Part shown: piece after piece, positions 7,831 to 40,240 of the stretch
Layout: every line of letters begins with the position of its first letter
Position numbering within the stretch: position 1 is the stretch's first letter
Source of the DNA: a virus
Lineage: Duplodnaviria; Caudoviricetes
Reading direction: 5' to 3' (one strand)
IMG/VR virus record: IMGVR_UViG_3300031998_000006
Coordinates: 1 to 64,000 of that record
DNA: 64,000 bases
Program-made: the position numbers and the translations under genes
Notes under the pieces: generated by a model
The model's database searches: none
Told to the model about the DNA's origin: nothing
Seen by the model: the letters and a program-made list of their open reading frames with translations, nothing else

Positions 7831-7927
7831 TGATAAGGGTTCTTGGCAGTCCCCCTATCAAGGTTGAATTTTTAGAATGTCCTCGGAATGCTGACTGCCA
7901 ATTTTAAGTGTTTCGGGGACATTTTGC
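7831..7927 (+). promoter_or_regulatory. Double-hairpin kissing-loop leader upstream of tnpB
   Basis: Stems 7831-39/7852-60 and 7876-92/7907-23. The loop 9-mers TTGGCAGTC and GACTGCCAA are exact complements. Confidence 0.7.
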
Positions 7928-7932
7928 TATTT

Positions 7933-9063
7933 ATGGTAGAGTTGAAGACATACAAGTATAAGTTATACAATCGGGATGCCTTGAAGTATCTTGATGAAAT
8001 ACTTGTAGTCGCAGGGCATATATACAATCATTGCATAGCTCTCCATCGCAAGTATTATGCTTTATACCATAACTCTTTGAATAAATCTGTGTTATCCCGT
8101 CATTTAACAAAATTGAAGAAACATCACCCCGAATGGACTAAAGTTCCCTCACAGGCTATACAGGATATTACGGACAGGATTGACAGGGCTTATAGATTGT
8201 TCTTTTCAAATCTAAAGCACGGGATAAAGACCAATCCTCCGCATTTTCAAAAGACTAGCAAGTATCGTTCGTTCACGACTAAACAGGCGGGATATAAATT
8301 TCACGACAGCAACAAAGTCCGTATAGGTGTAAAAGAGTTCGCCTATTGGAACAGTAGAGATTTTGACGGCAAGATAAAGACTTTAACCGTAAAGCGTAAG
8401 AACAACGGCTACTACATATATGTCGTAGTAGAACAGGAAGCACAGATTGAGAACATTGCAAAATCGGGTAAAATCGTTGGCTTTGATTTCAGTCTAAAGA
8501 ACTTTCTTGTATCTTCGGACGGCTCGGATTGCAGTATGCCTAAACTCTTGCAGCGAAACCTAAATTCCCTGCGGAACTTGAGCCGTAAATACTCCAAGTC
8601 CAAAGGGAAACGAGGCTCGCTGCGGACGCTACAGAAAATGCACGAAAAGGTGACAAACCAAAGGGCAGACCTACACTGGAAACTTGCTAGGAAACTATGC
8701 AAGGACTACGATGTGATGGTGTTTGAAACCCTTGATTTGGCTAGTATGGACAGGCGGTTCAAGAAATCCATAAACGATTTCGGGATGAATGCTTTTCTGT
8801 CCATTTTGGGATATGTGGCACACAGGACGGGAAAGACCGTTATGTATGCGGACAAGTATTTTGCATCTTCGCAGTTATGTAGTGAATGTGGTTTTAAGAA
8901 CACGGCGTTAAAAGACATAACAATCCGAGAGTGGGTATGTCCTAGTTGTGGATGTTTGCACAACAGGGATTTCAATGCTGCACTGAATCTACAAAAGGTA
9001 GGGGCATCTACCTTTGGGAAATGTTGTCCGTCTGTGGCAACTCCTAGAATCCCACGCCTTTAG
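7933..9063 (+). CDS. tnpB: RNA-guided nuclease TnpB
   Basis: KTYKYKLY N-terminus, RuvC motifs GFDF, VFETL and NRDFNAA, and a CSEC..CPSC zinc finger. Start moved to 7933. Confidence 0.93.
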   Translation: MVELKTYKYKLYNRDALKYLDEILVVAGHIYNHCIALHRKYYALYHNSLNKSVLSRHLTKLKKHHPEWTKVPSQAIQDITDRIDRAYRLFFSNLKHGIKTNPPHFQKTSKYRSFTTKQAGYKFHDSNKVRIGVKEFAYWNSRDFDGKIKTLTVKRKNNGYYIYVVVEQEAQIENIAKSGKIVGFDFSLKNFLVSSDGSDCSMPKLLQRNLNSLRNLSRKYSKSKGKRGSLRTLQKMHEKVTNQRADLHWKLARKLCKDYDVMVFETLDLASMDRRFKKSINDFGMNAFLSILGYVAHRTGKTVMYADKYFASSQLCSECGFKNTALKDITIREWVCPSCGCLHNRDFNAALNLQKVGASTFGKCCPSVATPRIPRL

Positions 9064-9279
9064 TCGTGGGAGTATGTCAATATCAAATAGATGGTGGAGA
9101 AAAAGTATATGTGGATTATGGGGTAGTCGGCTCCATTTGTAATTGTCCATAGATACTCAACTTATATGCCCTAGTTTGAGTATTTGTTCCATAATATTCT
9201 CGGTTTAGTCGTTTATCATTTTGCCAATTCCGTAAGATTTATATACATTTAGGGTGTATAGCAAACAAGGATTTTACTG

Positions 9280-10413
9280 ATGGCAATAATTCCCTCAAAG
9301 CAATTACATAGGTCCGGCCCAATGAGTGACCTTCTCGCCAACTTATCCGAGAGGGAGATTGGCTTTTGTGAGGATGATAACCGTTGTTACATCTGTGTTA
9401 TAGACCATACTAAGTCTTATGGAGAACCCGGCTACAAGCGTCTTGTTGGTTTAGGGGATTACGACCATATTGTTCCAGACCCTACTACATCTAGTATCTT
9501 TATGGGTTATAAGGTGCAGGAGGACGATACCTCCTATACTTTTGGTTGGAAGCCTGCTACTTTTGAAAATAGCCCTTTAGATAGTAATACAATATTGCTA
9601 TCTCGCATTGATGGTAAGGGCATTCTTGCCGAGTATGCCAAGAATACAAATGTGCGGACCATAGAATATGGAGTTACACAGTATGCTTCCATTATTTCTG
9701 CTGTAAATGCTAAATTAATTGCTATTTTAGTTGATAGTAGTCACAACTGCGTAGCTCCTTTAGCCAGCATTACTGAAAGTTCTTGTACATTTAGGTCGTC
9801 AGCGGATAGTTCAGGGAAATTTTATGAGTACACGGTTACATCCGAAAATGTGTGGACGGTAACACAGAAGGGTCTAGCTCCCTTTGTTACGGAAAATGCA
9901 GACCCCACCGAAGCACCTACAAATTATGGTTATTTGTATAACAATAGTTCTACTGGCGATATTTGGATTGCACTCGGAACATCGGATGTGTCCGATTGGA
10001 AGTTAATCTACAATCGTAATCACGACTTGATTGTGCAGATAAAGTATTTGAAGGTCAGCGAGAGTGACACGGGTCTTACCCCTCGTAATGTGCTGTGTGA
10101 CAGGCAGAATTACAGTATTAATAATGGGAACATTATTTTTAAGCCAGTAACTCCCGAAGAACTTGCCAAGTGGTTTAATCGTGGGGATGTGATTCAAATT
10201 GATGGGGCTGTGGCATCGGACCCGTGGGGGGACCGTTACCCTATGTATATTACGGAGGTACAGTGTGACCCTGCTAGTGGTACCACTCCAGCTCGTTGCA
10301 CTAATATTGAGGTACGAGGGTATAAGTATAGTTCCGCCGAAGAAATGTACTGGAGCAACCTAATTACTGATTATACCGATAATAAGGTTTATATGGAATT
10401 TCAAGGTTGGTAG
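9280..10413 (+). CDS. Hypothetical virion-associated protein
   Basis: 377 aa with AAGGA RBS. EREIGFCED N-terminal motif and DPT...GYLYNNSSTGDIW motif resemble fibre and structural proteins. Confidence 0.55.
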   Translation: MAIIPSKQLHRSGPMSDLLANLSEREIGFCEDDNRCYICVIDHTKSYGEPGYKRLVGLGDYDHIVPDPTTSSIFMGYKVQEDDTSYTFGWKPATFENSPLDSNTILLSRIDGKGILAEYAKNTNVRTIEYGVTQYASIISAVNAKLIAILVDSSHNCVAPLASITESSCTFRSSADSSGKFYEYTVTSENVWTVTQKGLAPFVTENADPTEAPTNYGYLYNNSSTGDIWIALGTSDVSDWKLIYNRNHDLIVQIKYLKVSESDTGLTPRNVLCDRQNYSINNGNIIFKPVTPEELAKWFNRGDVIQIDGAVASDPWGDRYPMYITEVQCDPASGTTPARCTNIEVRGYKYSSAEEMYWSNLITDYTDNKVYMEFQGW

Positions 10414-10486
10414 AATTTCTCGTGCAATTATTCGTGATACTTTGTGGTGTCTATAACAATTCATTTTAACTAAAGGAATAAACATT

Positions 10487-10753
10487 ATGTCTATGACAAT
10501 TAAGGTACATACAACAGAAAAACTGAACAAGGGCGATTCTGTGAAGAATGAGGATTCTTCTGCTTACAAGGTGTTTGAACAACGGAAGAGGGATGTATTA
10601 AATCGCCTTGAATATTTGAAGGGTATTGTTGATAAGTTCTCCCCATCCGAGGAAGAAATCAATGAAGATACTATTAGCGATATGGATTATATTCTTGAAT
10701 CGTTAGATGACGTGATTAAGGACACCAAGGACGCTACAGGTTTGGGTGATTAA
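10487..10753 (+). CDS. Small acidic protein with an MSMTIKVH leader
   Basis: AAGGA RBS. The N-terminus resembles the leader family at 37305-51780. Confidence 0.7.
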   Translation: MSMTIKVHTTEKLNKGDSVKNEDSSAYKVFEQRKRDVLNRLEYLKGIVDKFSPSEEEINEDTISDMDYILESLDDVIKDTKDATGLGD

Positions 10754-10786
10754 ATTACTGATTCTTATGGAGGGGGTCTAGGTATT

Positions 10787-11551
10787 ATGCGTATAACAAA
10801 AGTAAACCACCGCATCTCCAGACTTGACGAGCAACTGACCAAGCTACTCCGGTTGAAATCACACCCACACATCCGTCTTCAAGAATCCCTCTCGGACTGG
10901 GCAGAACGTGAGGTAGCCATTGCCTGCAAGGGAGAGGATTCCTACGGTACCGGATGCTACAAGTCCGCACTCAAGGCATTCCGCTCCCTTTGCAACGATG
11001 GACATAGCGGATTTTCCATAGGACTTACAAAGCAGATTCTTGACCGCCTAATAGACGGCAAGCCCCTCACACCTATTACGGACTCTCCCGAAGAATGGAA
11101 TGAATGTTGCGACTTCGATAGGGATGGCAAATCCGTATATCAAAACTCCCGAATGTATGCACTTTTCAAGTATGTGTATGACGATGGCACGGTAGAGTAT
11201 AGCGATGTTGACCGCACCATCCTCATAGAAGTGAAAGATGACGGAACGGAAACATCGTGGCATAGCGGACTTGCATCAAAACTTGTCAACGAGATTTGCG
11301 GACCAATTACGCTCCCTTACATCCCTAGCGACAAGCCATACAAGGTATATGCCCAGCAGTTCGACTCCGTGAATGCCGAACCCGGATGCTTCGATACATC
11401 ACGCATAATCAAGATAGTTGACCCAGAAGGGAACGAAATTCCTTGCGAACGATTCTATGCCGAAACCTATAGGGATATGGAGGAAATCAGCGAGGAAGAA
11501 TACAATCGTAGGCGGTTGTCATACGAGCAGGCGTTGCAGCGGAATAAATAA
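10787..11551 (+). CDS. Hypothetical phage protein
   Basis: 254 aa with a DGHSGFSIG...LIDGKPLTPI core preceded by a basic N-terminal segment ending LQES. Confidence 0.75.
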   Translation: MRITKVNHRISRLDEQLTKLLRLKSHPHIRLQESLSDWAEREVAIACKGEDSYGTGCYKSALKAFRSLCNDGHSGFSIGLTKQILDRLIDGKPLTPITDSPEEWNECCDFDRDGKSVYQNSRMYALFKYVYDDGTVEYSDVDRTILIEVKDDGTETSWHSGLASKLVNEICGPITLPYIPSDKPYKVYAQQFDSVNAEPGCFDTSRIIKIVDPEGNEIPCERFYAETYRDMEEISEEEYNRRRLSYEQALQRNK

Positions 11552-11580
11552 TGATAATGTAATCATACTTTGTTTTTAAC

Positions 11581-13017
11581 TTTGTTATTTGTGTTTTATA
11601 GGTATTTATATACAACTATTATGAGAGTCATTGAAATTTTTATAAATCAGCCTAAAGATAAGATTGGCATTTGTTATGTAACAATGTATATTTAGACTAT
11701 GAAAACGGTTAAACTCCAAATATCAAATGCACCCGATGTGCTAGACGATATGCGTGTATTTAGCAGTATCGTCCGTATGGCGTTTAATCGTTACCAAGAA
11801 GGACTTTCCGAAAAGGAAGTCCGTGCCTATGTTAGTTCCAAGTTCTCCCACAATAGTTGGTTTATTCATTCCGCTGTGAAGGAAGCACAGACTATCTATC
11901 TAGCCCGTGGAAAAGAAAAAGTTGTGTTCGGGGGCAAATGGAATTTAACGCAATACCTTAAAGGATTAATTACAAAAGACCAATTCAAGCGAACTCGAAT
12001 GATACCTGTCTGTAGCTATGGTGAAATGGCTAATATGGGCAATCGTCTTATAGATTTTGATTTGTTGAATAGTCTTATAATATACAAACCCTCACGGTAT
12101 GTTCATAAGGAAATCCGGTTTTTCCCTATAAAGAAGAAACTAGCACACGAACTTTCTATAGTACAAGAACTTGCGGCCCAAAAGAAGATGTCAATTACGG
12201 TTAAGTTTACGGATAAGTATCTTTATCTTACTTATGATGAGTCCTTGATTTATAATGAAGCCTACAAGGGCTTGAAGCATAACAGAGTTTTAGGGATAGA
12301 TATGAACCCCAACTACATTGGGGTATCTATTATTGAGTTTGATAATAAAGATGAGTTTAAAGTCTTGCATAAAGAGGTTTATGATTTAACGGCACTTACA
12401 ACATCTAGTGGGAAATCGTCTTCGGATGCAAAATCCAAGTACCGTACAAATAAATTAAAATATGAAACAATAGCGATAGCCCATAAGATTAACAAGTTGG
12501 TAGATTATTGGAAGTGTTCTAAATTTGCTATCAAAGACCTTACTATTAAGCCTACAGATAAAAAGAAAGGTAAGAATATCAATAGGCTCTGTAATAACAA
12601 GTGGGAACGAAATCTATTTGTAAACAAATTAAAGATGCTTGCCAACATCCACAAATATGAGTTGGTCGAAGTAAACCCGGCTTACTCGTCCATCGTTGGT
12701 AACTTTGCCTATGGCAATGAAAATACCCCCGATATGGTTGCGGCATCTATCGAGATAGCTCGCAGGGCATACAAGAACTTTGAAAAGGGGTGGTTCTACC
12801 CCAAGTTCAACGTTGAAACGCTAGATGAGCGATGGAAGCAAACACTAGCCGGAGTGAAGACTTGGAAGAATCTATTCCTAAAAGTCAAAGAAGCGAAACT
12901 GAAATATCGCTTCCTGTTAACAGACTATGTTTGTAATGCAGTCTTAAGCAAATTCTATAGGAAATGTATGTGGAAAATCTATATTTTTGCATAGGTGGCT
13001 ATAGTTTTTGTATTTTA
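11581..13017 (+). mobile_element. tnpB-only element, copy 1
   Basis: The ORF and about 120 bp of upstream plus a short downstream flank are homologous to 33805-35244. No terminal hairpins seen, so boundaries are approximate. Confidence 0.75.
11699..12994 (+). CDS. tnpB: TnpB-related protein lacking a zinc finger; RuvC-II Glu replaced by Lys
   Basis: LGIDMNP, AIKDL (AIEDL in copy 2), VNPAYSS and PDMVAASIEIARR. Confidence 0.85.
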   Translation: MKTVKLQISNAPDVLDDMRVFSSIVRMAFNRYQEGLSEKEVRAYVSSKFSHNSWFIHSAVKEAQTIYLARGKEKVVFGGKWNLTQYLKGLITKDQFKRTRMIPVCSYGEMANMGNRLIDFDLLNSLIIYKPSRYVHKEIRFFPIKKKLAHELSIVQELAAQKKMSITVKFTDKYLYLTYDESLIYNEAYKGLKHNRVLGIDMNPNYIGVSIIEFDNKDEFKVLHKEVYDLTALTTSSGKSSSDAKSKYRTNKLKYETIAIAHKINKLVDYWKCSKFAIKDLTIKPTDKKKGKNINRLCNNKWERNLFVNKLKMLANIHKYELVEVNPAYSSIVGNFAYGNENTPDMVAASIEIARRAYKNFEKGWFYPKFNVETLDERWKQTLAGVKTWKNLFLKVKEAKLKYRFLLTDYVCNAVLSKFYRKCMWKIYIFA

Positions 13018-13032
13018 GGAGGTCTTAAAGTT

Positions 13033-13287
13033 ATGGAGAAGTTTGTGGAGATTTTATCTGGATTGTCGAGCATCATAGGAGTGCCAGCAACGCTTTGTCT
13101 TGCCTGGGCGGCATTCGTCATCCGTGACCACTCCAAGAGAATACAGAAGTTGGAAGATACCATTGCCGAAAATGATAACAAGCGTGCCGATGAATTGAAT
13201 CAGTTGTATAACAAGATAAATTCCATCTCTAATGATTTGTCCTTTATCAAGGGTATCATTTCGGAAAGGTACAAGAAGGAGGATTAG
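13033..13287 (+). CDS. Holin-like membrane protein
   Basis: One N-terminal hydrophobic helix plus a coiled coil, located ahead of the peptidase. GGAGG RBS. Confidence 0.5.
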   Translation: MEKFVEILSGLSSIIGVPATLCLAWAAFVIRDHSKRIQKLEDTIAENDNKRADELNQLYNKINSISNDLSFIKGIISERYKKED

Positions 13288-13289
13288 GT

Positions 13290-13760: not shown

Positions 13761-13761
13761 T

Positions 13762-14175: not shown

Positions 14176-14184
14176 GGATTGCCT

Positions 14185-15548: not shown

Positions 15549-15563
15549 CGGAGAAATGTCCTT

Positions 15564-16829: not shown

Positions 16830-16834
16830 CACCC

Positions 16835-18889
16835 ATGGCAGATACTCCGCAATTCTTTGACCATTTCACTCTGGCGAATATGTCCTTGCAGGAACGATTG
16901 GGTCGTTCCGGTGCGGCATTGAACAAGGATTCTGCCGTATTTGGTCAGCAGGTCCGTTCGCTCTTGCAGATGCTCACATACGGACTTGACTCCGTTACCG
17001 CCCGTGCCGCATCGCATCTGTTGAATATGGACATTCTGTATAGCAACGATGCCTACCTTCTCAAGATGACGGAAGGTCTGTTGCTCAATAGCGTCAAGTC
17101 CATCACGCCACCCAAGATTAGTGCCGCACATCCCTTTAGGTTCTGGAGTGAACGAGATTACACCTACTGGAGTTCCGTTGGCACTATCGGATTGAAGGAT
17201 GGTTCGAAGGTCAATCTTATCGTGTATGACATTCAGCGAACGGGTGTTGTTGAAGGTCAGGACACCAACGATAAGGAATATGAAGCTCTCTATTGTGCCG
17301 GTAACTATGTTCAGCAAGAAATCAACCAGGGTTTCGACGGCTATACTCCGGGTGTGTTCGCCCCTATCTATGTGGCTGAAACCTATAAGGCTATATGGTC
17401 CGAATCCGTTGAAGTGAAACTTGTGATGGACGGGGATGATACCCCCGTTCCGCTCGACATTGCTTGGTCCTTGGATGAACTCCTTGGGATGACGAACAAT
17501 GATTATGCCGTGCTTGCACAGAACACCCCTCGTGGTATGACCATCACTCTCGGTGATGGAGAAATCTTCGGCAAGGGCTACAACAACAAGACCGGCATCG
17601 TGTCCGTGAAGGTGTCCTATGTCAAGTGCGATAACCTCGCACCCGTTGACCATTCCACCATCAAGTTCAACAAGGACATTACACCTATTTTTGCAAAGGG
17701 CGATGGCATCCCCCTTTTGACTCCGTTAGACATGGGCGACACTGCCAGTTCGCTCCGTTCCCGTTCCATTGCGGAGTTCTTTGCCGCAAGTAAGATTACG
17801 GACGAGCGGGACCTTGCAACGGAAGTTATGAAAATTCCGTTCGTCAAGTCCGTGGGTGTCCGTAGGGAATACAACTGGTCTGTGTGGAAGACCATCCGAA
17901 TGCTTGCCCAGGGCTATGCCTACTATAAGACCCCGGCAAGCACATTGTATGCCCAGGGGGTGGACAAGAAGACTAGGGAATCCCTCATCATTTTCTACAA
18001 GCGATACCGCTATAGTTCTAGCAAGACCTACCATCCGGGGGATATGGTTGTTTATGGCGATGGGGTGTGGATTTGCTCCGACCCCAACTACATAAGCGGT
18101 GTTCCGTCCGCTCGTAAGGGATGGACGTTCTTCATCAACCTCTCCAACGGTTCCGCTATCGGGGCTATGTACGAGAAGTATTATCCGTCCGCTTGTGTCT
18201 ATGACAATGCTACGATTGTAATGTCCGGTCTTGTCTTGAAGAACAGAAGGTACTGGAGTCCAGATAGCCACTATAGCCGTGGCGATGTGGTCTATCATTC
18301 CGGCACGAAGAAACTTTGGCTTGCCATTCAGGACGGTGGCGAGGTGGTCGAGCCGGGTAGCGAGGAAAGCGCATCCGTGTTTGGGGATGATGGAGTTACC
18401 CTCATCCGTTACTGGGCTACCCGTGACGAGGGCGAACAGCTAGAACAGAACTACGATGCCAACAACGTGAACAATCCGTTCGCTAATGTGGCATACCGCT
18501 TCGACGATTACGAACAGATGACCCAGATGATGTTCGAGTCCGAAATCAAGGGTTACTTCAATATCGCTGGAAAGCTGGGCTTCACATCCGTTGTAGTTGA
18601 GCCTTTGGCACAGATTGGCGTGACGGTCAGTTGCAAGTACAAGGCACCGTATTCTATGCAACAGAACATCCGCAATTACATTGAGGATTATGTCTGCTAC
18701 AATGTGAACAAGGAATTGAGGGCTGACGACTTGAACTCCCAGCTTACGGAAAAGTTCAGCCTTTCTGCCGTCTATGTGAACATCCGTTTCACTGGCGATG
18801 CCGCTAATGCTGACTTGGCTTTGCAGTTGCCCACCGCAACCTATGTACCGCCAAGCCTTTTGGAAATTGAAATTAAGGAGAACTTATAA
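16835..18889 (+). CDS. Baseplate wedge protein, gp6/baseplate-J-like
   Basis: ITLGDGEIFGK, GDTASSLRSR and ITDERDL motifs, with two inserted Y..GD.V.Y modules. Confidence 0.7.
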   Translation: MADTPQFFDHFTLANMSLQERLGRSGAALNKDSAVFGQQVRSLLQMLTYGLDSVTARAASHLLNMDILYSNDAYLLKMTEGLLLNSVKSITPPKISAAHPFRFWSERDYTYWSSVGTIGLKDGSKVNLIVYDIQRTGVVEGQDTNDKEYEALYCAGNYVQQEINQGFDGYTPGVFAPIYVAETYKAIWSESVEVKLVMDGDDTPVPLDIAWSLDELLGMTNNDYAVLAQNTPRGMTITLGDGEIFGKGYNNKTGIVSVKVSYVKCDNLAPVDHSTIKFNKDITPIFAKGDGIPLLTPLDMGDTASSLRSRSIAEFFAASKITDERDLATEVMKIPFVKSVGVRREYNWSVWKTIRMLAQGYAYYKTPASTLYAQGVDKKTRESLIIFYKRYRYSSSKTYHPGDMVVYGDGVWICSDPNYISGVPSARKGWTFFINLSNGSAIGAMYEKYYPSACVYDNATIVMSGLVLKNRRYWSPDSHYSRGDVVYHSGTKKLWLAIQDGGEVVEPGSEESASVFGDDGVTLIRYWATRDEGEQLEQNYDANNVNNPFANVAYRFDDYEQMTQMMFESEIKGYFNIAGKLGFTSVVVEPLAQIGVTVSCKYKAPYSMQQNIRNYIEDYVCYNVNKELRADDLNSQLTEKFSLSAVYVNIRFTGDAANADLALQLPTATYVPPSLLEIEIKENL

Positions 18890-31046: not shown

Positions 31047-32315
31047 CTAAAGGGTGTGGGCTTCGGGCTTCAACCCAGCAGACTTGCCTTGCCCAAGATA
31101 GGACAAGATAGAGGTCTGCCAGTCAGAGCTCATAAACTCCCTCTGTTCCAGAGGTACTAATTTCCTACCTTCCTGCAACATGCGGTTAGCCGAATGAAGG
31201 TCCCTGGGCATATACAATCCACAATCACACTTGAAAGTGCGTTCGTTTTGTGGCATAGAATGTTTCTTGCCACAGTTGATGCACTGCTGCGTAGTGGGTT
31301 CTCTGCGATTGACAACATATACATTGTCTTGCGATTTCAGCTTCGCCTTGACGCTGCCCAAGCAACTATGTTGTACCGCCTTGCCGTGTCCAGTCTTATG
31401 CCATCCTTTGAGATTTTCGTCTTGGATGTATATAAGTCCGAATCGCTTGTTCAAGTCGGCGACAATCTTGTTGGCCTTGTCGTTCTTTCGGTTTACCAAT
31501 CGCTGATATTTCTTCTGTATCTTGTGGATTGTTCGTCTTCGACTATTGGAGCCTTTCTTCTGTCTGTTCTGCTTTCTTTGCAGTCTTTTCAAGTGCTCCG
31601 GTTCTTTAACCTTGACATCAATCTCTTCGCCCGTGGATAGGGTAAAGGATGTATGGCAACCCATGTCGATACCGACATCAGCGTGAGGTCGGTTGGAATA
31701 CGGTTTTCTTTCTGTATAGGTCGTGACAGCAAGATAATAGCCATCCGCCCTATTCAAGAGTTTCGCATTTGCGAACTCAACATCATCCTTAATCTGGTCA
31801 AGACCGTTTACTCGCACCAGACCGTGAATATTCTGTATCTTTACTAAATGGTCATTGTGGAATTTATATGTTGTTCCATATTGTTTTAATGAAACGGCTT
31901 TTATTTCGGATTTGAATTTTAGCTGACCTACCTTGAATCCTTTTTTCTTTAATCTTGCTAAAGCCTTTATAGATGCTTTGATGTCCGTATAGACGGATTG
32001 TTTCATCTGTGAACCGATATGTTCAAGATTTCTACCATTAAATGGCCCATCGGGCATTTTGATTTTTACGGTATTTCCAAGTTCGTAGTCAAATATGGAT
32101 TGTCCCTTAATAGCACCATAATTAAGAATGTCATTGTAAAGCCATTTGGCTTCTACGAACAGCATCTTGAAGTCTTCTTTTTGCCGTGCGGATAGCTTGT
32201 TTTTCTGTACCTTGAGCATATAGACACGGCAGACTTGCGACTTACGCTTCTCGTGCGTAGCCTTCATAGCTTCCTTGATAGAAACATTCTTTGCAAGTCG
32301 CTGTTCTTCGGTCAT
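31047..32315 (-). CDS. tnpB: RNA-guided nuclease TnpB
   Basis: VGIDMG, IQDENL, CINC..CDC and PRDLHSA. Confidence 0.93.
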   Translation of the reverse strand: MTEEQRLAKNVSIKEAMKATHEKRKSQVCRVYMLKVQKNKLSARQKEDFKMLFVEAKWLYNDILNYGAIKGQSIFDYELGNTVKIKMPDGPFNGRNLEHIGSQMKQSVYTDIKASIKALARLKKKGFKVGQLKFKSEIKAVSLKQYGTTYKFHNDHLVKIQNIHGLVRVNGLDQIKDDVEFANAKLLNRADGYYLAVTTYTERKPYSNRPHADVGIDMGCHTSFTLSTGEEIDVKVKEPEHLKRLQRKQNRQKKGSNSRRRTIHKIQKKYQRLVNRKNDKANKIVADLNKRFGLIYIQDENLKGWHKTGHGKAVQHSCLGSVKAKLKSQDNVYVVNRREPTTQQCINCGKKHSMPQNERTFKCDCGLYMPRDLHSANRMLQEGRKLVPLEQREFMSSDWQTSILSYLGQGKSAGLKPEAHTL

Positions 32316-32386
32316 AGCAATAATCTAGTTAATTTTATTTAAAAATGCAAGCCATTTTTATAAAATTTAACTACATTTAGTTGTGT

Positions 32387-32791
32387 ATGAGCAAATATGA
32401 ACGATTCAACCATGCAAAAACCTTTTTGCGGTATCACCTAATTTTTTCTACAAAATATCGTAGGAAGGTTTTAAATCCTATACGGGATGACTTGTTAGAA
32501 GCTATGCGGATTGCCCAAGAGAAAAACCGGAACTTCGGCATAGAGATAGACGAGGTTGACCAAGACCATATCCATCTGCTCGTCCGTATCAAGCCGAATG
32601 AGTCTATCTCTAGGGTGGTACATGAGCTCAAGCAACAATCTACCTATCTAATGTGGCAAAAACACCATGATTATCTATCCAAGTTCTACTGGTCCGGTCA
32701 ACACCATCTATGGACTCGTGGATATTTCGCATCTACTATAGGAGATGTTTATGAAAAAACATTGGTGGAATATATTAAAAATCAAGGTTGA
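32387..32791 (+). CDS. tnpA: IS200/IS605 Y1 transposase TnpA
   Basis: YHLIFSTKYRR, the HUH motif DHIHLL, LWTRGYF and catalytic YIKNQ. Confidence 0.96.
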   Translation: MSKYERFNHAKTFLRYHLIFSTKYRRKVLNPIRDDLLEAMRIAQEKNRNFGIEIDEVDQDHIHLLVRIKPNESISRVVHELKQQSTYLMWQKHHDYLSKFYWSGQHHLWTRGYFASTIGDVYEKTLVEYIKNQG

Positions 32792-32898
32792 ATGATGATT
32801 AAAAAATTGATAAATTTATGTACAAGGAGTTGGTTGCGTTCATACGCCACCCTAAAGGGTGGCATCTTTCCCGTAGCCTATTGTCAAAAGGAGTTACC

Positions 32899-33768: not shown

Positions 33769-33804
33769 AATAATTTAAGAAATCCTATTGACATCTGCCG
33801 GTAA

Positions 33805-35244: not shown

Positions 35245-35289
35245 TTTTTCCTATCGTATAAACTGAAACATTTTTCAAGGAGTTTCACG

Positions 35290-35532
35290 ATGGTTTACAA
35301 GGTTGACGATTCCCTTACCAATTTCAAGTTCTGGAGTGGTGCTGCTACGAATGCAGAACTCCTTACCTATGATGAACTAAAGCAACTTGACGATATTCTT
35401 CCGGAATATTTTGGTGAAGAAATCCCGACGCAGACGGAAATCAACGATATGTTCTGGTTTGATTTTCCGACCGTTGTGGAAGCCCTCGGTTACACCTACG
35501 ATGAAGACAATGGCGAAATCATCCGCGACTAG
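35290..35532 (+). CDS. Small acidic protein (FWSGA...TEINDMFWF)
   Basis: AAGGAG RBS with ATG at 35290. 80 aa. Confidence 0.8.
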   Translation: MVYKVDDSLTNFKFWSGAATNAELLTYDELKQLDDILPEYFGEEIPTQTEINDMFWFDFPTVVEALGYTYDEDNGEIIRD

Positions 35533-35544
35533 GAGTACAACGAT

Positions 35545-37284
35545 ATGTCTAACAACTTGAATTGGACCATCGCATACAAGACGGTCTTTGGCGAAAAGAA
35601 GGTGGAATCTTTCACGGACAAGAAGGAAGCTGACGCTCGTTATGAAGCCCTCCTTGCACGAACCTATGGTAGCCTTGGCGATATTGCCGGTGTGACGAAG
35701 CCGGTTCAGTCCGGGGCGAAGGTCACGGAATCCAAGGAACAGAAGACTCCGAAGAAGTGCGAATCTTGGGTGGTTGACTACAAGCGTCTGTTCGACTCCG
35801 AAATCGAGTCCGAAGAGTTTGACAACCTTACGGATGCGAACGAGTTCTACAACCGCCTTATGGACGATGCCGAAGGTTACGAGTTCATAGACGAACCCCG
35901 TGAAGTTGAAGGTCTTGAAGAATGCGGTGGCTCTTCTGCCGCATCTCTCGGTGCTATTCCCACGGGTGTTGTTAGACAGAACGATGAATCCAAGAAGTCC
36001 GAAGCAACGGGAGATACCGGCATTGATGCACAGATGATTGATGCCCTCCGCAAGAAAGCCAATGAGGACCGTGAATGGTTCGGCAAGTTCAACGATATGT
36101 TCTCCGAAGAACTCAAGGAAGCTGGTTTGGGTGGTTTCGTGATGGTGTTCCGTCCGAAGGACCCAACCAAGGTTGATGACCGCTTCCAGTACAACGTGGA
36201 ATGGCAGCCGTATGACTTGAACTACGATTTTGTTAAGAATGACGAGTTTAACCAGAAGACCTATGGCTTCATTGATTGCGAATGGGATGGCAAGTCCGTT
36301 GTTACGCACGACTACCGCCCATTGGACGAACAGAGCATTGACGATTTCTATGACACCGTTGTTGCAAGCGGTTCGGGCGATGAGGGTATCTTCCTCTGGG
36401 TGCTTGAGCAGTACAAGCAGAGCATCGGCAAGACGGAAGCCAAGAAGTCCGAAGCGGACGGTGATGAAGCCAAGCTCCAAGCCGCCTATGGCGATGGCGG
36501 CATCATTACTCACGAATCCTCCGCAGACGGCTTCTATGTGGATGACCATGACCCGATGGGCTATGCAATCCTCAATAACGATGTGGCTACGATGAAGGAA
36601 CTCTTCGCAGGCACTGCACCCGTTCCCGAAAAGCCTTGGACCTATGCCGGTTGGCACGAAGACACGGACGCCCCGGAAGACAAGGACGGAAACTATCCGT
36701 ATGTCTATGACTGGGAACGAGAAAACGATACCAACTTCGTGAACGACTGGAAGCGAGTTGTTGGCGAAACGAACAACGAAGAAGCCCTCAACTTTCTTCT
36801 TGAAAAGGCACCGGACTTTGTTCCTACCGCAATCGACTTCTACAATGCATTCCATGCCGGTTATGACAAGAAGCTGCTCCGCAAGTTGCTTGACAACATC
36901 AGCACGGTGGTTGACAAGGAAGACATCAGCCGTGAATATTTGAATTATGAAGACTTTGGCGAAGATGCCTACAACAACCTCGACAAGTTCTTGGATGCAT
37001 CCGAATCTTGTAAGTCCGAAGCCTTGCCCCCGAAGCAGTGGGGCAACCGCGCTCGTAAGTTCCCTTCCCGTGCCGCACTCGTCAACAAGGCGAAGACTCT
37101 CGGTGCTACCGAAATCATTAGCCACGATGATTACAAGAAGTTGAATGACGATGTGTTCCTCGACAAGATAGGCTTTGCAATGGACATCAACGGAAACTGC
37201 AAGGCTCGTCTGTGGTGGGGCGAAAAGGATGGAAAGTATTACTACACTATTACCCGTGATGTCCTCGACAAATCTGGCTGGTAA
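35545..37284 (+). CDS. Acidic modular protein with ESKKSE-type linkers (putative internal head polyprotein)
   Basis: ESKEQK, ESKKSE, EAKKSE and ESCKSE separate unrelated modules. Confidence 0.75.
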   Translation: MSNNLNWTIAYKTVFGEKKVESFTDKKEADARYEALLARTYGSLGDIAGVTKPVQSGAKVTESKEQKTPKKCESWVVDYKRLFDSEIESEEFDNLTDANEFYNRLMDDAEGYEFIDEPREVEGLEECGGSSAASLGAIPTGVVRQNDESKKSEATGDTGIDAQMIDALRKKANEDREWFGKFNDMFSEELKEAGLGGFVMVFRPKDPTKVDDRFQYNVEWQPYDLNYDFVKNDEFNQKTYGFIDCEWDGKSVVTHDYRPLDEQSIDDFYDTVVASGSGDEGIFLWVLEQYKQSIGKTEAKKSEADGDEAKLQAAYGDGGIITHESSADGFYVDDHDPMGYAILNNDVATMKELFAGTAPVPEKPWTYAGWHEDTDAPEDKDGNYPYVYDWERENDTNFVNDWKRVVGETNNEEALNFLLEKAPDFVPTAIDFYNAFHAGYDKKLLRKLLDNISTVVDKEDISREYLNYEDFGEDAYNNLDKFLDASESCKSEALPPKQWGNRARKFPSRAALVNKAKTLGATEIISHDDYKKLNDDVFLDKIGFAMDINGNCKARLWWGEKDGKYYYTITRDVLDKSGW

Positions 37285-37304
37285 CAAGGAGAAAAAAAAA
37301 GATT

Positions 37305-37589
37305 ATGTCCAAATTAACTATCAAGACTAACGAAGAATCTGGCGATGCATCGTTGCGTGACCTCATCCATGATGACAAGGAAAATACCCTTCTTGCAAAG
37401 TTCGGTACTTTGGGTGATGCCAACCGTTGTTTTGCGGCACTTTCTGGTGTCCTTTTCGACAATGGCGAACTTGCACAGCACGAAACCGTGGCATTGTTCC
37501 CGATTATGTCTAATGTGGCAGTCTTTATGTATGATAAAGCCGGTGCTGATGCCGTGGAAGAATACATCCTTGAACATTTCGGAGTTTAG
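37305..37589 (+). CDS. Putative internal head protein (leader MSKLTIKTNE)
   Basis: AAGGAG RBS and the shared 10-aa leader. Confidence 0.75.
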   Translation: MSKLTIKTNEESGDASLRDLIHDDKENTLLAKFGTLGDANRCFAALSGVLFDNGELAQHETVALFPIMSNVAVFMYDKAGADAVEEYILEHFGV

Positions 37590-37591
37590 TT

Positions 37592-37990
37592 ATGTCAAAG
37601 TTGGTAATTAAGGCTTACGAACATAGGGTAAAGGAGTCCACGGACTCTACCACTTACTCCATCATTTCTGCTTTCGGAAAGTACGAGGATGCCGATGGGC
37701 ATTCCGGTACTCTCTATGATGCAAGCACCCTCGTAACTACCCGTGAGTTTGCTTCCGCAGACGAACTTATCCAGTTCGTTTATCGCAAGTTGAAGATGAA
37801 CCCGAAGAACTGCACGGTCAATTCCCTTGATAGGGATGAGGGCGAATCGTACATTAGCCTTGAGGTTGTGTACAAGACTCGCTCTACTACCCAGTCCTAT
37901 CTGTTGCGTATCGTAGGTTACAAGCGTATCGCCTGCCCGAAGGACGAACTCGTGGATGCATTCAAACCTATTTTGTACAAGGAAGGTTGA
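37592..37990 (+). CDS. Putative internal head protein (leader MSKLVIKAYE)
   Basis: GGAG RBS and the shared 10-aa leader. Confidence 0.75.
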   Translation: MSKLVIKAYEHRVKESTDSTTYSIISAFGKYEDADGHSGTLYDASTLVTTREFASADELIQFVYRKLKMNPKNCTVNSLDRDEGESYISLEVVYKTRSTTQSYLLRIVGYKRIACPKDELVDAFKPILYKEG

Positions 37991-38013
37991 TTTTAATTCA
38001 AGGAGACTGTATT

Positions 38014-38382
38014 ATGGCAAAATTTAAATGTTCTATGCAGAAGAAGAAGGAATCTCTTGCCAAGGAATCCGAAGCAAAGAAGAACGAAGGGTTTATGAAT
38101 GACCTTCCGTATGATGCATCGGTTGCAATAGAATCGCTTTGTGCCGAGATTATGGCACACCCGGACACATTTACTATTGAAGATTCTGCCGTAGCTGAAA
38201 TGTGTGGCAAATGGTATATCCGTAGTTATGCGGATGGCCCCACGATGGCACATAATGAAGATGAATGGGTGGAAGAAGTTACCGCTGGGTTGTCTGGTAG
38301 CCCAGTGGATGGTTCTCCGTTTGGAGCTGCCGAAGCGGAAGAATATGCTCACAAGGTATTCCAAGAAGAACTTGCAGAATAA
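38014..38382 (+). CDS. Putative internal head protein (leader MAKFKCSMQKKKESL)
   Basis: AAGGAG RBS. The leader recurs internally in two other ORFs. Confidence 0.75.
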   Translation: MAKFKCSMQKKKESLAKESEAKKNEGFMNDLPYDASVAIESLCAEIMAHPDTFTIEDSAVAEMCGKWYIRSYADGPTMAHNEDEWVEEVTAGLSGSPVDGSPFGAAEAEEYAHKVFQEELAE

Positions 38383-38438
38383 TATTTTTGAATAGATAGC
38401 ACGGATTAGCTATAAATTTTGTATATTTATAGCATCAA

Positions 38439-38540
38439 GTTTAATGAATTAGTGGCTTTCTTCATTAAACGATAAGAACCATTTTACGATGGCTCGTTTG
38501 GAATTGAAAGCCACAGTAAGTTCCGAACGAGTCATTTTTG
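38439..38540 (+). promoter_or_regulatory. Double-hairpin kissing-loop leader upstream of the large tnpB
   Basis: Stems 38439-48/38461-70 and 38489-505/38519-35. The loop 9-mers GTGGCTTTC and GAAAGCCAC are exact complements. Confidence 0.7.
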
Positions 38541-38545
38541 TATCT

Positions 38546-40240
38546 ATGAGTAAGCATTGTTGGACATTGAAGGATAAGTATGAGTCACAGTTCTCTGTGT
38601 CTTTTTATCCATTTATGTTGTCCAACACGAAGAAAGCTGAAATCCTACATAGGGCAGAAGAGATACGAGCGGTTAGAAATGAAATATCGGAAATCGTACA
38701 TAATGATATGTTACGGTTTCAAGATATGTCAAAGTTTAGTTTTCAAAAAGTATTTAATTCTTTATATAATCATAGGCTTTCTAGTCATTATTTACATAAG
38801 GCGATTGATGATGTTTGGATAGCATATAATCGTAGATTTAAGGCGATTGCTCAAAAGATTGAATTTTATAAAGTTGATAAGCTAATCCCCACATTTTATA
38901 AAATCAATACTCATGGACATCATATAGGCGATTTACGTAGTATTACTTGTCATACTCGTAAAACTGATTTGACATTAGCTCTGACTTGGTTGGCTAAACA
39001 CGGTAATGATACTACTATTGAATGGTTAAAATCTACAATAGCTTCGGGGTCTTCCAAGAATGCCTTTTATTATAAGTTATTAGGATATATTCAACGTTTT
39101 GGGTTTGGGCGACTTATGCGGTTGGCAACATCTCGACGGGATGCCTTATTTAAGTCTTATTTTTTACGCGGTAGGATTATTTTTAATTCTTTGACATTTC
39201 ATGGAAGGAGTAGGCATACTCGACCTATTGTAAGTTTGGCTCGAAAAGAAAAGGGTAAGTTTAATTGTTATATAGAACTTTCATGGCTGTGGAATAATCA
39301 AGGTTATCATGGTGTGGCTACAAATGCTTTATGCATTCCGGTTAAGTATAGTAAAGCATATCATCGGTCTTTAACTAGATATACTCATAGTTTTGATACC
39401 TTTTATACTATGGTTATTACAGGTAAGGATATTCATATAGTTTTATATAGACGAGGGTATCGGTACAAGAATAATGTAGAGATTAGTGATAACAATACTA
39501 TAGGTATAGATGTTAATTCTAAAACTAATATGTTTACTTTAAGTACGGGTGGGTTTATAGCTAATGATTCATCCCTAATAAATGAGTTTATAGTAGAATC
39601 TCGTAAGGTTGATAGAAAGCAACATCACTATAATTCTAGGTATGCTATCCAGCCTGATGTTTCAGCATTTAAGATGTCTAAAACGGATAAAATTCATATC
39701 AGTTCTATTTCTAGGAAATTGAAGGAATCTAATAGAAGAACTATTGTAAACTTATGTAAGCAACTTGCCATTAAGGGTATATGGCATATTGCTATGGAAA
39801 ATTTAATTGGATTTAAAGGTACTAAATTACATCCAAATGATGAATTAGGGTTTAATCTAGGGAGGTTGCATAAATATATAAATTTATCCTCATTAAAGGA
39901 CGAGTTTATACATATAGCTCCCAAGTACGGGTTGTCCGTATCTCTTGTGCAACCCGAATACACATCAAAGATGTGTGGACATTGCGGATGCATAGATGAC
40001 CGCAATCGTCAAACCCAAGAAGTTTTTAAATGTGTTGAATGTGGGCATACAGAAAATGCTGACGTTCATAGTGCAAAGAATATCAAATTCCGTCTTACCT
40101 CGACCGTGTTAAGGGGGTACTTGTTCGAAAGAGCGAGGGATAACGGATATAGGAACTTTCAGCCAAAGAGCTTGTCTAGGTGGCAAGTAAGGGAGTTCCT
40201 AGAAAAATGTCGTAGCAGTGGGCTATTTAGTAGTTCATAG
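38546..40240 (+). CDS. tnpB: Large (564 aa) TnpB/Cas12f-like RuvC nuclease
   Basis: IGIDVN, IAMENL, PEYTSK, CGHC..CVEC and NADVHSAKNI. AT-rich insert in the head region. Confidence 0.85.
   Translation: MSKHCWTLKDKYESQFSVSFYPFMLSNTKKAEILHRAEEIRAVRNEISEIVHNDMLRFQDMSKFSFQKVFNSLYNHRLSSHYLHKAIDDVWIAYNRRFKAIAQKIEFYKVDKLIPTFYKINTHGHHIGDLRSITCHTRKTDLTLALTWLAKHGNDTTIEWLKSTIASGSSKNAFYYKLLGYIQRFGFGRLMRLATSRRDALFKSYFLRGRIIFNSLTFHGRSRHTRPIVSLARKEKGKFNCYIELSWLWNNQGYHGVATNALCIPVKYSKAYHRSLTRYTHSFDTFYTMVITGKDIHIVLYRRGYRYKNNVEISDNNTIGIDVNSKTNMFTLSTGGFIANDSSLINEFIVESRKVDRKQHHYNSRYAIQPDVSAFKMSKTDKIHISSISRKLKESNRRTIVNLCKQLAIKGIWHIAMENLIGFKGTKLHPNDELGFNLGRLHKYINLSSLKDEFIHIAPKYGLSVSLVQPEYTSKMCGHCGCIDDRNRQTQEVFKCVECGHTENADVHSAKNIKFRLTSTVLRGYLFERARDNGYRNFQPKSLSRWQVREFLEKCRSSGLFSSS

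What the first reader, a model, noticed from the sequence alone, without database searches (positions are those of the whole stretch)
7831..38546. Same kissing-loop double-hairpin RNA leader in front of two dissimilar tnpB genes
Seen: 7831-7927 and 38439-38540 have no obvious sequence identity but the same geometry. Each has a TATATT box, a 9-10 bp stem with a 12-nt loop, a 15-18 nt spacer, a 17-bp stem with a 13-14 nt loop, a T tract, and the ATG about 10 nt later. In both, the last 9 nt of loop 1 are the exact complement of the first 9 nt of loop 2 (TTGGCAGTC/GACTGCCAA and GTGGCTTTC/GAAAGCCAC). Established: the omegaRNA lies at the 3' end of tnpB, so this 5' element is something else. Inference: a structure-conserved attenuator or autoregulatory element that limits nuclease expression. 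I cannot tell whether Rfam already lists it.
Basis: partly seen in the sequence, partly recalled or inferred. Interest (0 to 1): 0.75.

Follow-up and report, generated by a model that had tools for sequence, protein, structure and literature searches.

The report
Kissing-loop leader RNA before tnpB
A small folded RNA leader, in which the tips of two hairpins pair with each other, sits between a promoter and the start of several transposon nuclease (tnpB) genes of this uncultured gut jumbo phage; it is real, conserved and apparently undescribed, and most likely keeps these selfish nucleases at low or gated expression.

Summary
Both sites (7831-7926 and 38439-38538) have hairpin H1, a spacer, a long terminator-like hairpin H2, a T tract and the tnpB ATG. 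Nine bases of loop 1 are the exact complement of nine bases of loop 2.

It is not chance. The 215-kb phage genome holds at least 7 such leaders, all directly before tnpB genes. In 18 aligned leaders the loop-loop helix is paired in 100% of cells, and 7 of its 9 pairs change on both sides.

The leader lies inside the mobile IS200/IS605-type element, between the left-end hairpin with its promoter and tnpB.

It is not TnpB-specific. In 15 related phage records, 22 of 26 model hits precede tnpB genes of several lineages and 2 precede homing-endonuclease-like genes.

Rfam has nothing, and ten full-text searches found no description.

Best reading (about 0.5): a promoter-proximal terminator and start-site-occluding leader, locked by a pseudoknot, that limits or gates nuclease expression. 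Autoregulation by TnpB is unlikely. No RNA data exist.

This scan has noted the same leader before on other phage DNA.

The parts
7735..7738 (+). TTAC target/left cleavage site. The IS608-like element A1 begins right after it.
   Evidence: Six class-A copies share TTAC|GCTGAA..., and their flanks differ upstream of TTAC. IS608 uses TTAC (PMC3201880, passages).
7748..7771 (+). Left-end guide AAAG (7748-7751) plus the subterminal hairpin CCCACGGC-TAAA-GCCGTGGG (7752-7771). This is the presumed TnpA binding site.
   Evidence: Read. The hairpin is listed. It is conserved in relatives. It resembles the right-end hairpin at 9051-9070.
7785..7813 (+). Sigma-70-like promoter TTGCCA-17-TATATT inside the element.
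   Evidence: 10 of 12 matches. TTGCCA is conserved in 6 class-A copies.
7831..7860 (+). Leader hairpin H1 of copy A1. Its 12-nt loop is TTC plus K1, TTGGCAGTC (7843-7851).
7875..7924 (+). Leader hairpin H2 of copy A1, terminator-like (18 bp). Its loop is K2, GACTGCCAA (7893-7901), plus TTTTA. A T tract follows.
   Evidence: H2 -22.8 kcal/mol; K duplex -14.0.
7933..9063 (+). tnpB class A (376 aa, P0001).
9051..9080 (+). Right-end hairpin (9051-9070) and TCAA end (9077-9080) of element A1.
   Evidence: TCAA lies 10 nt 3' of the hairpin foot, as in IS608.
38422..38427 (+). TATATT box of copy B2. No -35 match was seen.
   Evidence: not listed as a promoter by the tool.
38439..38470 (+). Leader hairpin H1 of copy B2. 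Its loop is TTA plus K1, GTGGCTTTC (38452-38460).
38488..38536 (+). Leader hairpin H2 of copy B2 (18 bp). Its loop is K2, GAAAGCCAC (38506-38514), plus AGTA. TTTTT follows.
38546..40240 (+). tnpB class B (564 aa, P0002). Similarity to its paralog ends at about 40211, the likely right end, with the guide beyond it.

Best explanation
The element is a cis-acting leader RNA carried by the mobile nuclease elements themselves.

A sigma-70-type promoter inside the left end of the IS starts a transcript. Its first 95-110 nt fold into H1 and a long hairpin H2. A 9-bp loop-loop helix K ties the two hairpin tips into a compact pseudoknotted unit. A U-rich 3-nt linker and an A-rich 4-5-nt linker run along K.

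H2 with its U tract acts as a promoter-proximal intrinsic terminator. It stops most transcripts from the element's own promoter, and any read-through from upstream phage genes, before tnpB.

In the transcripts that do read through, the same locked hairpin ends 8-14 nt from the AUG. In the C-type copies it contains the Shine-Dalgarno sequence itself. Ribosome loading is therefore also hindered.

The net effect is low, or conditionally released, expression of a DNA-cutting enzyme that could harm the phage.

Shown: the structure, its covariation, its position inside the IS, and its association with nuclease genes.

Inferred: the transcription start, termination, translational occlusion, and the sign of the effect.
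For: 1. Structure. In 18 aligned leaders of two tnpB classes, 96.8% of cells are paired, against 34-43% when partners are slid. 30 of 37 pairs change on both sides, and no shuffle in 500 reaches any of the five measures. Helix K is 100% paired, with 7 of 9 pairs changed on both sides. The class-B alignment alone gives K 99.3% paired.

2. Sense-strand RNA. G.U pairs are frequent; for example, pair 54/103 is G.U in 14 of 18 sequences. The model scores 77-107 bits on the sense strand and at most 22 bits on the antisense strand.

3. Selection. The leader is more conserved than fourfold-degenerate sites of the adjacent tnpB in 13 of 17 pairs, for example 0.93 against 0.68 and 0.77 against 0.34.

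4. Position.
- Contigs from three runs (X4, X8 and X10), of three different studies as coded, skip exactly G000 116947-118414. That stretch holds the left-end hairpin, promoter, leader, tnpB and right end of copy C6.
- Class-A copies share TTAC|...left-end hairpin...TTGCCA-17-TATATT...leader...tnpB...TGTCAA|, with different flanks.

5. Promoter. TTGnnn-17-TATATT stands upstream of 6 of 8 copies in this genome. Copy A1 was found by the tool. The others I read by eye in the outputs.

6. Terminator and start geometry.
- H2 alone has -22.8 to -28.7 kcal/mol.
- In 17 of 18 aligned leaders the 3' arm of H2 runs into a TTT(T) run that continues past it; L049 is the exception.
- The ATG follows 8-14 nt later without a free Shine-Dalgarno sequence in classes A and B.
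- In the C-type copies AGGA lies in the 3' arm of H2, 8-10 nt before the ATG.

7. Gene association. All 7 leaders in this genome precede tnpB, and 7 of its 13 tnpB genes carry one. Of 26 hits in 15 related records, 22 precede tnpB-like genes and 2 precede homing-endonuclease-like genes.

8. Precedents. IS200 has a left-end terminator plus a Shine-Dalgarno-sequestering stem-loop (PMC4513863, passages). T4 homing-endonuclease genes have RBS-sequestering hairpins (PMC2988022, passages).
Against: - There are no transcript data. No RNA run holds this phage, so the start site, the termination and the sign of the effect are all inferred.
- In most class-B copies the U tract is short and interrupted (UUUCUG). 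In L049 it is nearly absent.
- H2 alone is already very stable. Thermodynamic stabilisation therefore cannot be what K is for, and the reading does not explain why K is the most strictly kept feature.
- Both window copies sit co-directionally inside phage gene rows. An efficient terminator there would be polar on downstream phage genes unless these have promoters of their own.
- Copy B2 lacks a -35 box.
- Some close tnpB relatives lack the leader altogether: L019, L043 and L054. It is therefore dispensable for the gene.
Confidence: 0.5

Rival explanations
1. Conditional switch or timing device. The kissing fold is the target of a phage or host factor: a protein, an antiterminator, an RNase or a ligand. 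When that factor is present, it opens the lock or lets RNA polymerase pass. All selfish nuclease genes of the phage would then be licensed together at one stage of infection.
For: - The same leader stands before unrelated nuclease gene families and many tnpB lineages in one phage group.
- Leader modules appear to be swapped between elements. A3 and L017 proteins are 91% identical, yet their leaders are only 53% identical.
- K and its linkers are kept more strictly than stability alone would need.
- Precedents: the late-promoter release of T4 endonuclease hairpins (PMC2988022), and the Tn916 insulating terminator with the cis antiterminator canT (PMC11658703, abstract).
Against: - No candidate factor was identified.
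- Conserved unpaired positions are few: the UU of the first linker and the last A of the second. That is poor for a ligand pocket.
- TATAAAC next to H1 is not a general promoter motif of this genome: 28 hits, 9 of them intergenic.
Confidence: 0.17
2. The product is the short RNA itself. Transcripts that end at H2 accumulate as a stable RNA of about 100 nt. This RNA then acts in trans: for example its loops pair with nascent leaders of the same copy, giving copy-specific multicopy inhibition.
For: - The promoter plus terminator makes a self-contained unit.
- One hit (L109) has no ORF of 50 aa or more behind it.
- Within this genome the five A/B copies are mutually orthogonal. Cognate K duplexes have -12.8 to -14.0 kcal/mol and non-cognate ones +0.9 to -8.9.
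- Covariation cannot tell intramolecular from intermolecular pairing. The phi29 pRNA loops are the classic case (recalled).
Against: - Distinct K cores in co-resident copies are expected by chance. My estimate from the K lists is that 16 co-resident pairs all differ with probability about 0.24.
- K is unchanged between copies whose fourfold sites are only 65-68% identical. It is therefore not fast-evolving.
- The polarity of K1 and K2 and the 12-24-nt spacer fit an intramolecular fold.
Confidence: 0.12
3. Positive or neutral 5' module. A compact 5' fold protects the mRNA from 5' exonuclease or endonuclease attack. Alternatively it insulates folding of the start region from whatever upstream sequence the element lands behind.
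For: - H1 lies within about 1-18 nt of the predicted start.
- The fold is compact and pseudoknotted.
- The hosts are probably Clostridia: C-type leaders occur in 3 rumen or cecum Clostridia MAG contigs.
Against: This does not explain the U tract after H2 or the burial of the Shine-Dalgarno sequence in C-type copies.
Confidence: 0.08
4. TnpB autoregulation. TnpB or its omegaRNA binds the leader of its own mRNA.
For: The leader sits on the tnpB mRNA. Most copies precede tnpB.
Against: - The same leader precedes TnpB lineages only 25-35% identical to one another, and two genes that are not TnpB.
- The longest complementarity between leader and element body is 7-11 nt, within the range of shuffles (means 7.6-9.1, maxima 9-15), except in L046, whose 11-nt match exceeds its shuffle maximum of 10. 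It falls at different places in different copies.
Confidence: 0.05
5. A single-stranded DNA structure of the transposon left end, used in TnpA-mediated transposition rather than as RNA.
For: It lies in the left end of IS200/IS605-type elements, whose top strand is processed as ssDNA (PMC3201880). A tnpA gene is present at 32381-32788.
Against: - The TnpA-type hairpin and its guide and cleavage sites are separate and lie upstream, at 7735-7771.
- H1 and H2 do not resemble the right-end hairpin.
- The leader also precedes free-standing endonuclease-like genes.
- The U tract and the spacing to the ATG are expression features.
Confidence: 0.03

Closest known systems
IS200 left-end control region: a terminator hairpin plus a Shine-Dalgarno-sequestering stem-loop in the tnpA 5'UTR (PMC4513863, passages read)
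   Same: Same transposon family (IS200/IS605). Two hairpins in the left end, one a rho-independent terminator and one occluding translation start. The purpose is to hold the element's own gene down and to block impinging transcription.
   Different: - In IS200 the terminator lies upstream of the promoter and the two hairpins do not pair with each other.
- Here the terminator-like hairpin lies downstream of the promoter, abuts the start codon, and is tied to H1 by a covarying 9-bp loop-loop helix.
- The gene is tnpB, not tnpA.
- No sequence or Rfam relation was found.
RBS-sequestering hairpins of T-even phage homing-endonuclease genes: I-TevI, -II and -III, segB, and mobE of Aeh1 (PMC2988022, passages read)
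   Same: Phage-borne selfish nuclease genes whose start region is buried in a stable hairpin. In C-type copies the Shine-Dalgarno sequence is inside the hairpin. The same device is shared by unrelated nuclease families.
   Different: - T4 uses a single hairpin that is bypassed by a late promoter inside it. No such internal promoter was shown here.
- No second hairpin or loop-loop pairing is described there.
- Here a U tract makes the hairpin terminator-like.
Insulating terminator and cis-acting antiterminator RNA of Tn916 (PMC11658703, abstract read), and promoter-proximal terminator units such as lambda PR'-tR' (recalled)
   Same: A terminator near the end of a mobile element protects harmful element genes from outside transcription. 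A promoter-proximal terminator gives a short RNA unless transcription is antiterminated.
   Different: No antiterminator is known here. The loop-loop lock has no counterpart in those systems.
Kissing-loop antisense control of plasmids and phages: ColE1 RNA I/II, R1 CopA/CopT, pT181, P4 CI RNA (recalled, not read)
   Same: Loop-loop helices of 6-9 bp whose few core bases set specificity. In some, pairing decides whether a terminator forms.
   Different: Those pairings are between two transcripts. Here both loops are in one leader, with a polarity and spacer that fit pairing in cis.
TnpB omegaRNA (reRNA)
   Same: A structured RNA of the same element.
   Different: The omegaRNA lies at the 3' end and overlaps the right end. 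The leader is at the 5' end, has no guide, also occurs before genes that are not tnpB, and shows no complementarity to the 3' region.

Membership tests
Any Rfam 15 family | Match to a curated covariance model | tested here: not met
   No hit at gathering score in the 64-kb window. In E-value mode the only hits over the two leaders are a microRNA model (MIR6201, E 0.87), an sRNA model on the opposite strand (pntA, E 4.6) and an sRNA model that overlaps only the last base of B2's H2 (STnc40, E 8.6), all far below their gathering scores.
Intrinsic (rho-independent) terminator | G+C-rich stem directly followed by a U tract | tested here: inconclusive
   The stem has 18-20 bp and -22.8 to -28.7 kcal/mol. 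The 3' arm of H2 runs into a TTT(T) run in 17 of 18 leaders. But the loop is 13-14 nt, so the scan tool does not list it, and the class-B U tracts are interrupted.
Intrinsic (rho-independent) terminator | RNA 3' ends at the U tract | not testable with these tools
   No RNA run is listed for this phage.
Kissing-loop / pseudoknotted RNA | Watson-Crick pairing between two hairpin loops, kept by compensatory change | tested here: met
   K is 100% paired in 162 cells, with 7 of 9 pairs changed on both sides. In class B it is 99.3% paired with 4 of 9 pairs changed. At least 25 different K sequences were seen.
IS200/IS605-family element (IS608-like), for copy A1 | TTAC-type left cleavage site, a guide tetranucleotide 5' of a subterminal hairpin, and a right-end hairpin with TCAA 10 nt 3' of its foot | tested here: met
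   TTAC is at 7735-7738, AAAG at 7748-7751 and the hairpin at 7752-7771. The right-end hairpin is at 9051-9070, with TCAA ending at 9080. The flanks of 6 copies diverge exactly at TTAC| and TGTCAA|. The IS608 features come from PMC3201880. TTAC lies 13 nt from the hairpin foot here, not 19.
IS200/IS605-family element | Presence/absence polymorphism with exact ends (mobility) | tested here: met
   Contigs from three runs (X4, X8, X10), of three different studies as coded, join across copy C6, skipping 1468 nt. Contigs break or rejoin exactly at the TCAA ends of A3 and A4.
omegaRNA of TnpB | Lies at the 3' end of tnpB across the right end, followed by a guide | tested here: not met
   The leader lies 5' of tnpB, inside the left end.
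T4-type RBS-sequestering hairpin of homing-endonuclease genes | Shine-Dalgarno sequence inside the hairpin | tested here: inconclusive
   Met in C-type copies, where AGGA lies in the 3' arm of H2. In classes A and B no Shine-Dalgarno sequence is seen at all. The possible copy at G000 208303 has AAGGAG outside H2.
T4-type RBS-sequestering hairpin of homing-endonuclease genes | A late promoter inside the hairpin that yields open transcripts | not tested
   The late promoters of this phage are unknown. I did not search for an internal promoter motif.
Self-cleaving ribozyme (pistol-like hairpin-pseudoknot) | A conserved catalytic core of unpaired nucleotides | tested here: not met
   There is no Rfam ribozyme hit. 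The invariant unpaired positions are limited to the UU of the first linker, the last A of the second and the T run.

The most novel reading that the evidence does not exclude
Each leader carries a private 4-7-base code in its loop-loop helix. That would give each selfish nuclease element in the phage its own copy-counting brake. It would be a cis-encoded, orthogonal analogue of plasmid incompatibility RNAs, shared across TnpB and homing-endonuclease genes.
Probability: 0.08. Interest if true: 0.85.

Novelty: new variant of a known kind. Interest (0 to 1): 0.62.

Why it matters
TnpB is the ancestor of Cas12 and a compact genome-editing nuclease. How natural elements hold its expression down is little studied.

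Here a covariation-proven RNA fold, absent from Rfam and not found in the searched literature, is built into IS200/IS605-type elements. It is shared with homing-endonuclease-like genes across a lineage of gut jumbo phages and some Clostridia assemblies. This points to a common solution for carrying a DNA-cutting enzyme inside a virus without damage.

The fold is small (about 100 nt) and modular, and it comes in many naturally orthogonal versions. If it does set termination or translation, it is directly testable with compensatory mutants. It could then serve as a tunable expression part.

The finding also shows that this phage carries 13 tnpB genes. At least three of those elements, and one further right end, are polymorphic among related phages, so they have been recently mobile.

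Tried and rejected
- BLAST of both elements against the phage collection found no match.
- Rfam gave nothing relevant.
- Sequencing runs: no RNA holder is listed. Only DNA contigs could be laid, so starts, ends and levels of RNA remain unknown.
- Model R1, built from class B alone, found only class B. The wider model R2 does not find C-type leaders. Those came from my own structure scan.
- Leader-to-body complementarity, as a test of omegaRNA or mRNA pairing, gave longest matches of 7-11 nt. Shuffle means were 7.6-9.1, and positions were not conserved. Rejected.
- TATAAAC as a general (late) promoter of the phage: 28 hits in 215 kb, about what composition predicts, and only 9 intergenic. Rejected as a genome-wide signal, although it is conserved 6-13 nt before H1 in most leaders.
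- Selection for orthogonal K codes: co-resident copies all differ, but by my estimate that is expected with probability about 0.24. Not significant.
- A coding reading of H2: an in-frame ATG at 7888 and one at 38489 are not kept in frame in paralogs (sequences). Rejected.
- Group I intron or IStron: no Rfam hit, and only about 190 nt lie between the left end and the ATG. Rejected.
- More distant TnpB relatives:
  - 17 viral loci at 27-34% identity: none has the full signature. L021, L028 and L039 gave only weak 7-8-nt loop matches without the geometry.
  - 16 genome loci: none has it. L065, L071, L075 and L079 gave weak 6-7-nt matches without the geometry.
  - L020 and L050 were left out because they lack upstream sequence.
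- Supplementary files of papers were not consulted.
- Ten full-text searches were run. Searches found no description of such a leader. Searches were used for analogies.

Full report
**What the window is.** The window is the first 64 kb of a 215,310-bp IMG/VR virus record. It has tail, sheath, baseplate, capsid and protease genes. DNA contigs from bovine and sheep gut metagenomes hold it; no RNA run does. The window carries four tnpB-type genes: 7933-9063, 31047-32315 on the minus strand next to a tnpA at 32381-32788, 38546-40240, and 55638-56873. The whole genome carries 13.

**Checking the observation.**
- In copy A1, H1 (7831-7839 with 7852-7860) has a 12-nt loop, TTC plus TTGGCAGTC. After 13 nt comes H2 (7875-7892 with 7907-7924, 18 pairs, five of them G.U). 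Its loop begins with GACTGCCAA, the exact complement. Then come TTTTA, the 3' arm, a T run and the ATG at 7933.
- In copy B2 the same plan holds, with GTGGCTTTC and GAAAGCCAC and the ATG at 38546.
- The fold program finds H2 at both sites and H1 at site 2, with z-scores of -2.6 and -4.6.

The geometry is precise. K1 always abuts the 3' arm of H1 after a 3-nt U-rich linker. K2 always abuts the 5' arm of H2 and is followed by a 4-5-nt A-rich linker.

**More copies in the same genome.** A structure scan of my own over the whole genome found the same design at three more places outside the window, each directly before a paralog of one of the two tnpB classes.
- G000 100860-100952: K1 is GTGCAAGTC.
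- G000 115127-115223: K1 is GTGGTGGTT.
- G000 202831-202929: K1 is GTCGCATTC.

Two further copies have a shorter variant, with a small middle hairpin, a K of 7-11 bp filling the loops, and the Shine-Dalgarno AGGA inside the 3' arm of H2. They stand before a third, canonical TnpB class with an HTH domain, at 117043-117134 and 81665-81753.

So 7 of 13 tnpB genes have the leader. The other six show none. A relaxed scan gave 15 hits against 4 in the reversed genome. Beyond the seven leaders and two mirror images, one hit (208303-208401) looks like a weak eighth copy. It stands before a 160-aa ORF of no family.

**Relatives and covariation.**
- Among close relatives in viral contigs, 9 of 10 class-A loci and 15 of 17 class-B loci carry the leader. 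L019, L043 and L054 do not.
- 17 TnpB loci at about 30% identity do not carry it.
- An alignment of 18 leaders of both classes fits one structure. 96.8% of cells are paired, against 34-43% when partners are slid.
- All ten H1 pairs, 13 of 18 H2 pairs and 7 of 9 K pairs change on both sides. K is paired in every one of 162 cells (class B alone).
- The outer pairs of K (G-C and U-A at one end; U-A and C-G at the other) hardly vary. The middle four to five pairs vary freely.
- The leader is under purifying selection. It is more conserved than fourfold-degenerate sites of the neighbouring gene in 13 of 17 pairs.
- In a few pairs the gene is close and the leader is not: A3 against L017 has 91% protein identity and 53% leader identity. 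Leaders therefore seem to be exchanged as modules.
- G.U pairs and a much weaker antisense score mark it as a sense-strand RNA.

**Where it lies.** The leader is part of the mobile element.
- Contigs from three runs (X4, X8, X10), of three different studies as coded, join G000 116946 to 118415. The stretch they skip holds a left-end hairpin, a promoter-like stretch, the C-type leader, tnpB and a right-end hairpin.
- Contigs also break or rejoin exactly at the TCAA ends of copies A3 and A4. A further tnpB element, on the minus strand near 114188, is skipped in two runs.
- For class A, six copies share TTAC|GCTGAA..AAAG-hairpin..TTGCCA-17-TA(T/G)ATT..leader..tnpB..hairpin..TGTCAA|, with unrelated flanks on both sides.
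- This matches IS608. There TTAC is the left cleavage and target site, AAAG is the guide 5' of the hairpin, and TCAA lies 10 nt 3' of the right hairpin (PMC3201880, passages).
- In window coordinates, element A1 runs from 7739 to 9080.

It lies in the left end, downstream of the TnpA-type hairpin and of a conserved sigma-70-like promoter.

**Not tnpB-specific.** A covariance model of the A/B leader was run over 15 related phage records. It gave 26 sense-strand hits at E of 0.01 or better.
- 22 precede TnpB-type genes. These include lineages only 25-38% identical to those of the window: 437-aa, 463-aa, W4-like and C-like.
- 2 precede ORFs that match PHROG homing-endonuclease families: L091 at 4.7e-5 (also DUF7487) and L092 at 2.5e-7.
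- 1 precedes a 431-aa ORF without a family.
- 1 has no ORF of 50 aa or more behind it.

C-type leaders also stand before tnpB in 3 of 19 loci from the species-genome collection. All three come from rumen or cecum Clostridia assemblies. Every new copy has its own K sequence, and K1 and K2 stay complementary.

**How it most likely works.** The anatomy reads as follows.
- The promoter comes first, then H1 near the 5' end.
- A very stable hairpin follows (-23 to -29 kcal/mol), then a U run.
- The start codon comes 8-14 nt later. It has no free Shine-Dalgarno sequence, or the Shine-Dalgarno sequence lies inside the hairpin.

I read this as a promoter-proximal terminator that also occludes the start site, so that little nuclease is made. 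The same hairpin would stop read-through from the phage genes upstream. This is what the terminator at the left end of IS200 is held to do (PMC4513863), and what the insulating terminator of Tn916 does (PMC11658703, abstract). Burying the start region is how T-even phages hold their homing endonucleases back (PMC2988022).

K adds about -13 kcal/mol and ties the large loop of H2 to H1. The U-rich and A-rich linkers are what one expects of strands that cross the deep and shallow grooves of a pseudoknot helix; that is an inference from established pseudoknot geometry. Because K1 and K2 both join their stems at the same end of K, the three helices and the spacer can close into a compact ring-like unit. 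A spacer of 12-24 nt is long enough for that.

What K adds functionally is the open point, because H2 is stable without it. K may speed or secure co-transcriptional closure of a long hairpin. It may make the fold resistant to ribosomes and nucleases. Or it may be the handle for a factor that opens the lock.

**Against this reading.**
- There is no transcript evidence.
- The U tracts of class B are poor.
- The scan tool does not call H2 a terminator because of its loop size.
- An efficient terminator inside co-directional phage gene rows would be polar.
- Close relatives of the genes exist without the leader.

**Rivals.** These are a conditional switch, a trans-acting or self-pairing short RNA, a 5' stabiliser, TnpB autoregulation, and a DNA structure for transposition. 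They are set out with their evidence in their own sections.
- Autoregulation by TnpB and a role in transposition are the least likely, because the leader also serves genes that are neither.
- The idea that K is an address code is not excluded. Cognate and non-cognate pairs differ by at least 5 kcal/mol.
- But it has no statistical support, and K does not evolve fast.

**Novelty.** Rfam 15 has no such family. Of my ten full-text searches, six looked for a description: TnpB with kissing, leader, terminator, pseudoknot or jumbo phage; loop-loop with intrinsic terminator; and kissing with homing endonuclease. None found one.

Earlier notes of this scan describe the same leader on other rumen jumbo-phage DNA, and related designs before HNH and LAGLIDADG genes. 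I reached the structure and its extension to genes that are not tnpB with my own calls. To those notes I add the empty-site proof that the leader lies inside the IS, the IS608-like end anatomy, the conserved -35/-10 promoter, and the Clostridia copies.

I class it as a new variant of a known kind: a cis-regulatory leader of selfish-element genes, with a loop-loop pseudoknot that known examples lack.

Noticed in passing
window 31047-32315 (-), 32381-32788 (+), 55638-56873 (+); G000 73417, 81765, 100961, 113079-114188 (-), 115231, 117140, 132952-134163 (-), 151618-152844 (-), 202943: The 215-kb phage genome carries 13 tnpB-like genes of several lineages but only one tnpA. Six of the tnpB genes have no kissing-loop leader.
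   Followed up: partly
window 2838-4073: An ORF matches the PHROG reverse-transcriptase family (5.5e-27). I did not check whether it belongs to a diversity-generating retroelement, a group II intron or something else.
   Followed up: no
window 55491-55506 and 57044-57099: The motif GATAATTT(A/G)TTA occurs three times in tandem at about 20-nt spacing before the gene at 57222. It occurs once before the leaderless tnpB at 55638, and again at G000 197483. It may be a promoter or operator array.
   Followed up: no
L109 (G013 16948-17053, minus strand): A good leader hit (E 6e-10) is followed by at least 400 nt without an ORF of 50 aa or more. There is no Rfam hit. It may be a decayed gene or a non-coding cargo.
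   Followed up: partly
L102 (G010 44899-45017, minus strand): The leader of a class-A tnpB has its spacer lengthened by three tandem copies of TTTAGAA. H1, K and H2 are intact. The spacer length is therefore tolerant.
   Followed up: no
L061-L063: C-type leader plus tnpB occurs in contigs binned as rumen or cecum Clostridia assemblies. This is a clue to the host, or these are phage contigs binned with the host.
   Followed up: no
G000 208303-208401: A possible eighth leader (TTGACA-17-TATATT, weak H1, middle hairpin, 10-bp H2, K of 7 bp) stands before a 160-aa ORF of no family that has its own AAGGAG outside the hairpin.
   Followed up: partly
window 40296-40350: A strong terminator-like hairpin (AAACACCTATA...TATAGGTGTTTTT) lies just after the class-B tnpB and before the head-protease gene at 40385.
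   Followed up: no
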